64,000 nt of DNA from NCBI GenBank assembly GCA_951406725.2, contig OX597820.1, positions 81,406,001 to 81,470,000 on the forward strand, in the 5' to 3' direction. This DNA is from Octopus vulgaris (Eukaryota). Shown piece after piece: positions 47,401 to 50,400 of the stretch. The notes under the pieces were generated by a model that saw only the letters and a program-made list of their open reading frames with translations, did no database searches and was not told where the DNA came from. Each line of letters begins with the position of its first letter. The stretch's first letter is position 1. The translations under genes and the position numbers were made by a program.

Positions 47401-50400
47401 ACATACGCGTGCACTAGCAAAGACAATTTAACGGCTATAAGTATTAAAAATAAAAACGTTTAAATTGTGATGATGTTGATATATATATTTATATATGCAC
47501 ACATACACACACATTCAGGTACATATGATAGTAGATATTCAAAAGGAGCTCGCCAACTAAGCACTTAATTAAGCGGTAAATTAATTTTACCGGTTGAAAG
47601 ATAGAACGTGCATTATTATTGATTCATTCCTATATTTCCCACTTGGCGCGCACGTGTGCACTTCTGTGTGTGTGTGTGTGTGTGTGTGTGTGTGTGTGTG
47701 TGTGTGTGTGTGTATTGTTTAAAAGTGTTAGTTGTAAATAAATGTAACTGTTATGTAAGCGGTGTTGTTCATATCCGATCGCCCGCGAAAACTGGCCATT
47801 ACCTTTCATAGACACAAGTGAGGTTGGCGTCAGGAAGGGCATCCTGCCGTAGAAGGTCTCTCTCAAGGAACTTTGTCTGAACCATGCAAAAGTAGAAAGT
47901 GGACGTTTAAATTGTGATGATGTTGATATATATATTTATATATGCACACATACACACACATTCAGGTACATATGATAGTAGATATTCTTATGAATTAGAA
48001 TTTTTACTTTCAAATAAATAAAAATGTTTGTCGAGACGAACTTAACTATTTCTTTCCTATATTTCCCACTTGGCTGACATTGTTATAACGAAATGTTAAA
48101 TTTATAGCAAATACTTTATGTGCAAGTACTTTTCATTTCTGTGTGTGTGCGCACGTGTGCACTTCTGTGTGAGTGTGTGTGTGTGTGTGTGTGTGTGTGT
48201 GTGTGTGTATTGTTTAAAAATTGTAAATATTTAAATCAAGAAAGCTTAAGTAAAAAAATCTTATTACCAGCCTAAGCTAAGGTGGTGAGATGGTAGAAAC
48301 GTTAGTACGTTGAAAGTTTAGCGGCGTTTTTTTTTTTTTCGGGTTCTTTACTTTCTGAGCTCAAATTCCACTGAGGTCGACTTAGCCTTTCGTTCTTTCG
48401 AAATCGATTAGATTAAGTGCTAGTTGGGTTCTGGGGCTGATGTAATTGACTTTCCAATCCCCTGAAAATTGCTAGTCTTGTGTCTAATTTAGAGAGAATT
48501 ATCCCTTAGGCTGTATAGTTAACACTATTATTACTATAAGTTACACGTGAACATCAAGAACAACATGCACAAACACTGGCACTTTCTATTATTTATACTG
48601 ACGCTGTCAGATAAATGCCAGCCCATGATATAGACTGCTATATTTATTACCTTCCACAGCTTTAATAGACGCTCTCCAAGGTTCCAGTTTATAGGAAATT
48701 TCGCGCAGTTCTCGTTTGAATTTGTTCCATTTCTGAAATGAATTAAAATGGCTATATATTAGGACATATATGTATTGGGATATATATATATATATATATA
48801 TATATATATATATATATATATATATATATATATAAAGTTAATCCAAACATGAAAACACAAAGAGAAAACACAACAACGCGAGAACGTGGAACAAGTATAG
48901 TGTTATTGGACGCACCGGAAAGGAAAGAAAGGAGGATCTAACGTTTCGAGCGGAGCTCTTCGTCAGAAACATAGGAAGGGAATATATATATATATATATA
49001 TATATATATAACGGGAAGCTTTATGAAAATAAACAAAAAACGAAGGCAGGTGGGATACAAACAAACAATTGTATTAGTATGGTGCTCAAGAATATAAATA
49101 AAACAAGTCTTTTACGTTTCGAGCCTACGCTCTTCAACAGAAAGATACACAGAAAAGAAACACGGAGAGAAACAAGGAGAGAAAAAAATGCGTGCAGAGG
49201 CTAGCGAATCAACATGGCGATATATATATATATATATATATATATATATATATATATATATATATATGTACAGCGAGAGAGAGAGAGAGAGAGAGAGAGA
49301 GAGAGAGAGCGACAGAGACAGAGACAGAGACAGAGAAACCACACCAGTAAAACAAGTAAAGATAAACAAAGAGGCACAAATAAAACACATGGTCGGAAGA
49401 GCAGAGAAATACGAAACAAAACGGTCAAAAGCATAGAATGTGTACAGTGAAAACGAATATGCCAAACGAGAAGGAATAGAAGAGATTCTAACATTTCAGT
49501 TGAACCAAAGAGAATTAAAATAAGAGGATAGGAAGAAAAACATGCGTGAACGCACACACGCACGCACGCACGCACGCACGCACACATACACACACACACA
49601 CACACACACACACACACACACACACATACATGATTATGCGTGAATGTGCCATATAAGTTGTGGAGAATGAACGTAACAAAGCAATCTAGAGTGAATTAAA
49701 GCTTTTCCATAAACAATTTTCGTTTGTTTGCCTTTGTAATCCCATAATCCGACCGTCTTTAGTACATACTTCTGGCATTTGCAAATGGACACGGCGAAAC
49801 ATACGCAGTGAGAACTACAACCTTTTAAACTCAAACGGGATATTATTGTATGTGTGTGTGTGCGTGTGTGCATGTGTGCTTATGTGTGTGTGTATGTATG
49901 TGTGTTTACTTATACACGAATGTATAATTGCATAATCATATATATGTACATACACAGTGCACAAATCAAAATACGCTGTGCAGTGCATTAAAAACTAAAA
50001 TCCCCATATTGTCAGCGAATGCACTGTTATTCATAATAGACAGACTTATTTAGCTATAGAGTTTCTATACTCAATACATATCCATAAACTAATAATCTCT
50101 GATAGAATATAGTTACACCTTCTCTGATGAAGGTATAAGGAGACTAGAAACGAGTTAAATACGCCCAATTTTTTCTGCTAACGGAGACATAACAGCTGTA
50201 GTGTAGCCATGCTGATTGCAAAAGTGAGGTTCAGTTGCATGTTTATTGAAACCATATATATACTTGACGCTTGGAGAATACAATACATAAGAGAGGGAAT
50301 ATGTGGATGTGGAGAGGAATCAGCACAGATAATAAACAAATAAAGAATAAAAGAACGTAAGGCAAAGATACCAGAACACCCTCTCTCTCTCTTTCTCTCA

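What the first reader, a model, noticed from the sequence alone, without database searches (positions are those of the whole stretch)
48834..49219. Tandem pair of different minimal hammerhead ribozymes in a TMC intron: candidate heterodimeric self-cleaving, retrozyme-like unit
Seen: two different short elements separated by (TA)n each carry a minimal type I hammerhead on the pre-mRNA strand: CUGUUGA...GAAACGUA (49108-49145) and canonical CUGACGA...GAAACGUU (48936-48970). Both have stem II GAGC/GCUC and the palindrome ACGU in place of stem III. Predicted cuts at 49113/49112 and 48940/48939 would release 173 nt, about 210 nt upstream of the 48732 acceptor. Established: minimal hammerheads of Penelope-like elements and animal retrozymes lack a stable stem III and can cleave as tandem dimers via such palindromes, yielding small RNAs that can circularise. 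Inference: two unrelated insertions could complement each other, cutting the host intron and possibly affecting splicing or producing a small circular RNA.
Basis: partly seen in the sequence, partly recalled or inferred. Interest (0 to 1): 0.75.

Follow-up and report, generated by a model that had tools for sequence, protein, structure and literature searches.

The report
Two Penelope stubs sharing a microsatellite
Two short end pieces of related, very abundant jumping genes, each carrying a hammerhead-shaped RNA motif, sit side by side in an intron, most likely because both families insert into the same TA repeats; they are predicted not to work together as a cutting pair.

Summary
Both motifs and all coordinates are real, but the pair is not a dedicated unit. 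E1 (49011-49220) and E2 (48835-48982) are short end pieces of two sister Penelope-like retroelement families (RT 62-73% identical), with 16,332 and 3,909 exact core copies genome-wide. Both families end in (TA)n. Of 204 sampled E2 copies, 13 have E1 within 400 nt, in all four arrangements; about 115 loci should look like this one. The composite was not found amplified. A double hammerhead swaps stem I arms between partners; a compensatory change between the families leaves 3 weak cross pairs instead of 4-5. E1's core has A6U, fixed in about 99% of the family, including intact young elements. No copy starts at the predicted cut (0 of 66, 0 of 69); 5' ends pile up about 105 nt upstream, so templates were probably uncut. 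The 6.6-kb TMC intron is spliced normally in 3 of 4 runs. Cleavage is untested. This scan noted A6U cores and such short copies before on other DNA.

The parts
49011..49220 (-). E1: 210-nt end piece (pseudo-LTR) of an abundant, recently active EN+ Penelope-like element with a Neptune-type linker; its 5' end is at the family's common stop point, about 108 nt before the predicted cut
49108..49145 (-). E1 minimal hammerhead motif: core CUGUUGA (A6U), extra A, 4-bp stem II, ACGU palindrome, 5-bp own-family stem I; predicted cut 49113/49112
48835..48982 (-). E2: about 147-nt end piece of a sister, older Penelope-like family; this copy is cut short about 43 nt before the predicted cut
48936..48970 (-). 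E2 minimal hammerhead motif: canonical core CUGACGA; this copy has G at 1.2 (A in most copies), so stem I is 4 bp with two G-U pairs and a 7-bp core-hiding hairpin is predicted; predicted cut 48940/48939
48983..49010 (.). (TA)14 between the elements; inferred insertion target
48781..48834 (.). (TA)27 at the 3' end of E2
49221..49266 (.). (TA)23 at the 5' end of E1
48733..55373 (-). Host TMC intron, 6,641 nt, GT-AG
48651..48732 (-). TMC-like coding exon downstream of the pair
   Evidence: the next exon (42121-41962) matches TMC-1
36721..36928 (-). Second E1-family copy (95.7% identical, same A6U core), 12 kb away on the same strand

Best explanation
The two motifs are the minimal hammerheads in the end pieces of two sister Penelope-like retroelement families, and they most likely lie together because two independent insertions hit one (TA)n tract of a TMC intron; they are predicted not to form a working mixed pair. 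Mechanism, inferred: the element's RT/GIY-YIG protein nicks AT-rich DNA and starts reverse transcription at a fixed internal point of its RNA, about 100 nt after the motif. It often runs off at a point about 105 nt before the motif (probably the transcript start), leaving a roughly 210-nt stub with an uncut hammerhead. The older E2 probably inserted first and the younger E1 later, into the TA flank 5' of it. The host intron is spliced out with both passengers inside.
For: Shown: 16,332 and 3,909 exact cores. E1 lies 361-905 nt after the endonuclease region on the same strand in 24 of 30 loci, and at both ends, about 4.5 kb apart, of 4 of 6 long elements with RT and GIY-YIG. E2 lies after a sister ORF in 13 of 30 loci, within the 1.5 kb held; 28 of 30 match the E1 protein. 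3' ends run into TA in 65 of 66 E1 and 60 of 69 E2 copies. Exact E1 cores within 400 nt of E2: 6 against 0.95 expected under uniform placement; arrangements 6/3/3/1 among 204 anchors. No second composite among 40 scored hits. Pair 2.4:1.4 is C-G in 164 of 187 E1 and G-U or G-C in 195 of 228 E2; cross-family stem I stops at 3 bp in 83-89% of combinations. No 5' end at the cut: 0 of 66 and 0 of 69; 25 and 33 end at -101 to -116. Literature: PLE minimal hammerheads cleave weakly even as dimers (PMC4209133); one needed its protein, and uncut RNA was the main template (PMC11167929).
Against: The arrangement seen here (E1 upstream, same strand) is the commonest class, 6 of 13 (P=0.08 against 1/4), so a mild bias is not excluded. 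The ACGU palindromes are identical, so stem III can cross-pair. The folding calculation hardly separates mixed from same-family pairs (26.8 versus 22.7 and 27.8 kcal/mol). A re-ligated RNA template would also leave intact motifs. Insertion order rests only on identity to nearest copies (97-99% versus 93-96%). Anchors come mostly from one contig.
Confidence: 0.85

Rival explanations
1. Chance neighbours, but the mixed double hammerhead does cleave at a low level, perhaps helped by the Penelope protein. The canonical E2 core would cut the E1 site (49113/49112); the A6U E1 core would cut the E2 site poorly or not at all, so the likely product is a single nick in the intron rather than a 173-nt piece.
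For: Identical ACGU; the first three stem I pairs are possible in both cross directions; the mixed structure is nested and can be drawn. Protein-assisted cleavage is reported for an Anolis PLE (PMC11167929).
Against: 3-bp cross stems with unfavourable duplex energies (+3.1 and +3.2 versus -1.2 and +1.7 kcal/mol for own-family arms); a competing 7-bp hairpin in the E2 copy; no genomic footprint of cleavage in either family.
Confidence: 0.1
2. One reading: a functional retrozyme-like unit that releases and circularises a 173-nt RNA and tunes TMC splicing.
For: Sense orientation, 173-nt spacing, position about 200 nt before an acceptor; slight, non-significant excess of this arrangement.
Against: Not a tandem repeat; composite not found amplified; needs two cuts, one by an A6U core; about 115 such pairs expected as by-products; intron spliced normally in 3 of 4 runs.
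Confidence: 0.03
3. E1 and E2 were inserted together in one event, by template switching between the two family RNAs.
For: Same orientation and close spacing; one sampled pair (L110) has no TA tract between the two.
Against: Here a (TA)14 tract separates them, each end looks like that of a solo copy, and the two copies differ in apparent age.
Confidence: 0.02

Closest known systems
Minimal type I hammerheads in pseudo-LTRs of metazoan Penelope-like elements (Cervera and de la Pena 2014, PMC4209133; parts 1-2 of 4 of the main text read)
   Same: No helix III, palindromic 15.2-16.2, extra base between 9 and 10.1, G10.1-C11.1, 4-5 bp helix I, thousands of dispersed single copies from truncated elements, occasional close pairs.
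   Different: Stem II is 4 bp. E1 has U at position 6 across the family. A mixed-family pair is not described in the parts read. Supplements not read.
EN+ Penelope-like elements with the Neptune/Nematis linker (Craig et al. 2021, bioRxiv 10.1101/2021.04.23.441226, passages read)
   Same: One ORF with RT then GIY-YIG, DKG motif, CX4CxxC linker, partial tandems forming pseudo-LTRs, bias for microsatellites.
   Different: Clade not placed by a tree. The reading frame continues past the endonuclease into a low-complexity tail.
PAc Poseidon element of Anolis (Frangieh et al. 2024, PMC11167929; parts 1-2 of 4 read)
   Same: Fixed internal 3' end point, AT-rich targets, uncut RNA as main template, no ends at the hammerhead cut.
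   Different: Here the element's own sequence continues with a short TA run at the 3' end point, which could pair with the target; PAc was reported to start without such homology.
Animal non-LTR retrozymes (PMC7229834, passages read; bioRxiv 10.64898/2026.07.22.740005, part 1 of 5 read)
   Same: Type I hammerheads 170-400 nt apart, PLE-related.
   Different: Retrozymes are tandem repeats of one unit with matching arms. This locus is two different units, once each.
Natural A6C hammerhead of phage Bcep176 (Perreault et al. 2011, PMC3088659, passages read)
   Same: Natural change at core position 6.
   Different: A6C, with kobs below 0.1 per min; here A6U in a stem-III-less motif with about 16,000 copies, untested.

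Membership tests
PLE minimal hammerhead | Core C3 U4 G5 A6 N7 G8 A9, G12 A13 A14 A15.1, U16.1 H17 | tested here: met
   E2: full match; A6 in 148 of 149 sampled copies
PLE minimal hammerhead | A6 in the E1 motif | tested here: not met
   U6 here; only 180 of 16,332 exact-pattern copies have A6; U6 in 24 of 24 copies behind the ORF
PLE minimal hammerhead | Extra base after 9, G10.1-C11.1, palindromic 15.2-16.2, no helix III | tested here: met
PLE minimal hammerhead | 4-5 bp helix I | tested here: met
   Pairs 1-4 kept in 91-98% of 187 E1 and 228 E2 copies, compensatory change at pair 4 between families
PLE minimal hammerhead | Located in the pseudo-LTR of a PLE | tested here: met
PLE minimal hammerhead | Self-cleavage as a dimer | not testable with these tools
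   No bench data; no genomic footprint at the cut
EN+ PLE, Neptune-type | Single ORF with RT and C-terminal GIY-YIG | tested here: met
   E1 parent: RVT_1 E=4.6e-8, above cut-off; GIY-YIG E=0.0064, below cut-off, with the motif visible. E2 parent by homology only
EN+ PLE, Neptune-type | DKG motif and CX2-5CxxC linker before the endonuclease | tested here: met
   Read in the translation; definition
EN+ PLE, Neptune-type | Partial tandem giving direct terminal repeats | tested here: met
   4 of 6 long loci
EN+ PLE, Neptune-type | RT phylogeny places it in Neptune rather than Nematis | not tested
   No reference PLE proteins held
Non-LTR retrozyme | Tandem repeats of one unit, each with a complete hammerhead | tested here: not met
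   Two different units, one copy each
Non-LTR retrozyme | Unit amplified as a family | tested here: not met
   No second composite among 40 scored of 3,317 candidates; a lower-bound search
Non-LTR retrozyme | Linear and circular monomer RNA in vivo | not testable with these tools
   Only assembled contigs were available, which cannot show ends

The most novel reading that the evidence does not exclude
The A6U hammerhead of the active E1 family is a working, protein-assisted natural variant, and sister-family cores can complement each other through the shared ACGU and U3/A3 stem I base. The roughly hundred mixed pairs in this genome would then be latent self-cutting sites in host transcripts, switched on when the retroelement protein is made.
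Probability: 0.06. Interest if true: 0.6.

Novelty: new member of a known kind. Interest (0 to 1): 0.2.

Why it matters
The pair itself is ordinary: one of about a hundred by-products of shared targeting. Two side results bear on the open question of what PLE hammerheads are for. A very successful, recently active family keeps the whole motif except A6. And neither family leaves copies that start at the cut, matching the in vitro report that uncut RNA is the main template. The sister families give a ready natural comparison (A6 versus U6, matched versus crossed stem I) for a bench test.

Tried and rejected
Rfam: no hammerhead hit. A direct genome-wide count of pairs was not obtained; the figure of about 115 (95% range about 40-250) is extrapolated from 204 sampled E2 copies. 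Pfam on the 240-aa and 81-aa endonuclease fragments: nothing; the long ORF was needed. The first GIY-YIG family search returned other PLE families, not the parents. Constrained folding gave 22.7-28.2 kcal/mol penalties for all 8 pairs evaluated (the window pair and 7 of 8 sampled loci; L235 gave no output), mixed or not, so it carries little weight. Sequencing runs: no RNA holder on record; contigs do not bridge the TA tract, so presence of the pair in other individuals or species is unknown; run X5 had no contig on the exon. Lunse et al. 2017 on PLE hammerhead variants is not held and may already describe A6 changes. Searches with no relevant paper: hammerhead + heterodimer + Penelope, 0 papers; core-sequence words; A6U words, only A6C hammerheads in the listings; intron ribozyme + exon tethering, 0 papers. 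Dropped rows: 5 of 71 E1 copies did not align; the window's own locus was left out of the neighbour counts; L439 and L440 may be one duplicated locus.

Full report
Observation. Motif 1 runs from C3 at 49140 to H17 at 49113, motif 2 from C3 at 48966 to H17 at 48940, and the two predicted cuts are 173 nt apart. Three (TA)n tracts frame the two elements. Rfam has no matching hammerhead model. The host is a TMC gene: the next exon matches TMC-1 (E=2e-5). Contigs in 3 of 4 runs, from three studies, cover just the 48651-48732 exon and continue into exons ending at 55374 and starting at 42121. The intron is therefore 6,641 nt and is spliced out. The runs are only guessed to be RNA, but exon-joined contigs must come from transcripts.

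Copy number. The genome is 2.8 Gb. The E1 core pattern has 16,332 exact matches and the E2 pattern 3,909, with 0 for the reversed controls. The window's E1 is 97-99% identical to its 39 nearest copies and E2 93-96%, which suggests that E2 is the older insertion. A second E1 copy lies at 36721-36928.

What the elements are. Walking upstream from E1 copies led to a GIY-YIG region. A protein search with it returned 150 scored copies at 90-100% identity; 24 of the 30 held loci have E1 361-905 nt downstream on the same strand. Six long loci hold open frames of 1,024-1,214 codons with RT (DKG, YIDD), a CX4CxxC linker and GIY-YIG; 4 of the 6 have the E1 motif at both ends, about 4.5 kb apart (Pfam RVT_1 E=4.6e-8, GIY-YIG E=0.0064 below cut-off). 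For E2, longer copies led to a sister ORF: 28 of 30 loci match the E1 protein, one over 528 aa at 62%, and 13 of 30 show E2 downstream within the stretch held. The two ends align with each other. So the insertions are related, not unrelated.

Why they are neighbours. 3' ends run into TA in 65 of 66 E1 and 60 of 69 E2 copies. Among 204 non-redundant E2 copies, 13 have an E1 core within 400 nt: 6 same strand upstream (as here), 3 same strand downstream, 3 opposite upstream and 1 opposite downstream. Exact E1 cores are enriched near E2 (6 versus 0.95 expected, P=5e-4), as shared targeting predicts. The excess of the window's class is not significant (P=0.08), though not excluded. Scaling 6 of 204 to 3,909 gives about 115 such loci (range about 40-250). 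A search with the whole 385-nt composite found no second copy among 40 scored candidates.

Can they complement each other? From the topology of a double type I hammerhead (my reasoning), A15.1 of one unit pairs with U16.1 of the other, so each active site uses one unit's core and 5' arm with the other unit's cut site and 3' arm. Matching ACGU is therefore not enough; stem I must cross-pair. Within each family stem I pairs 1-4 are kept in 91-98% of copies, and pair 4 is C-G in E1 but G-U or G-C in E2. This compensatory change supports the helix as real and also blocks crossing: 83-89% of cross-family combinations stop at 3 bp, and both do in the window (3 and 3, against 5 and 4). The E2 copy also carries a minority G at 1.2 and is predicted to hide its core in a 7-bp hairpin. 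Constrained folding put the mixed form 26.8 kcal/mol above the ensemble, but same-family pairs scored 22.7 and 27.8, so this test is weak.

The A6U core. Only 180 of 16,332 E1 cores have the canonical A6. U6 is present in all 24 copies behind the ORF and in the long intact elements, while position 7 differs among subfamilies. A natural A6C hammerhead cleaves at under 0.1 per min (PMC3088659, passages). In the mixed pair this core would have to make the 48940 cut needed for the 173-nt product.

Is there a footprint of cleavage? Following a lead from earlier notes, copies were collected by their 3' tails, independent of the core. None starts at the predicted cut: the nearest are -7 and +12 for E1 (66 aligned of 71) and -8 and +6 for E2 (69). 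Instead 25 of 66 and 33 of 69 stop at -101 to -116, and 51 and 53 keep the whole core. The simplest reading is run-off at a transcript start on uncut RNA; a re-ligated template cannot be excluded. This agrees with an Anolis PLE, where the hammerhead needed protein, uncut RNA was the main template and no reads ended at the cut (PMC11167929), and with the low dimer activity of minimal hammerheads (PMC4209133).

Verdict. Two new members of a known kind, adjacent through shared targeting (0.85). Low-level mixed cleavage 0.10; functional retrozyme-like unit 0.03; joint insertion 0.02. Cleavage was not tested. Interest 0.2, carried by the fixed A6U core, the family-specific stem I pair and the missing cleavage footprint rather than by the pair.

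Noticed in passing
window 36721-36928 (-): Second E1-family copy, 95.7% identical, same A6U core, on the same strand 12 kb downstream of the pair; a same-family partner in principle, but beyond at least two exons.
   Followed up: partly
L176, L181, L194 (3' of the GIY-YIG frame): A different PLE family with many 781-codon frames carries a minimal hammerhead with the U3-A8 core swap and a six-base palindrome; this swap is described in PMC4209133.
   Followed up: partly
L185, L191 (3' of the GIY-YIG frame): Another PLE family has U3-A8 plus C at position 13 and a different six-base palindrome.
   Followed up: no
L004:3194 (-), L013:496 (+): A third ACGU-palindrome family with canonical core and a longer stem II lies near E1 copies.
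   Followed up: no
L310, L312, L314, L315, just after the upstream pseudo-LTR: The element's own sequence continues with a short TA run exactly where copies end, which could pair with a nicked (TA)n target.
   Followed up: partly
L310-L315, end of the ORF: No stop codon after the endonuclease: the frame reads on for roughly 100-120 codons of Pro/Ser/Leu-rich sequence that varies between copies.
   Followed up: no
L386-L525: Both sister families share a 5' pile-up 101-116 nt before the predicted cut, a candidate conserved transcript start.
   Followed up: partly
L110:1396-1751: An E1-to-E2 pair joined directly with no TA tract between them.
   Followed up: no
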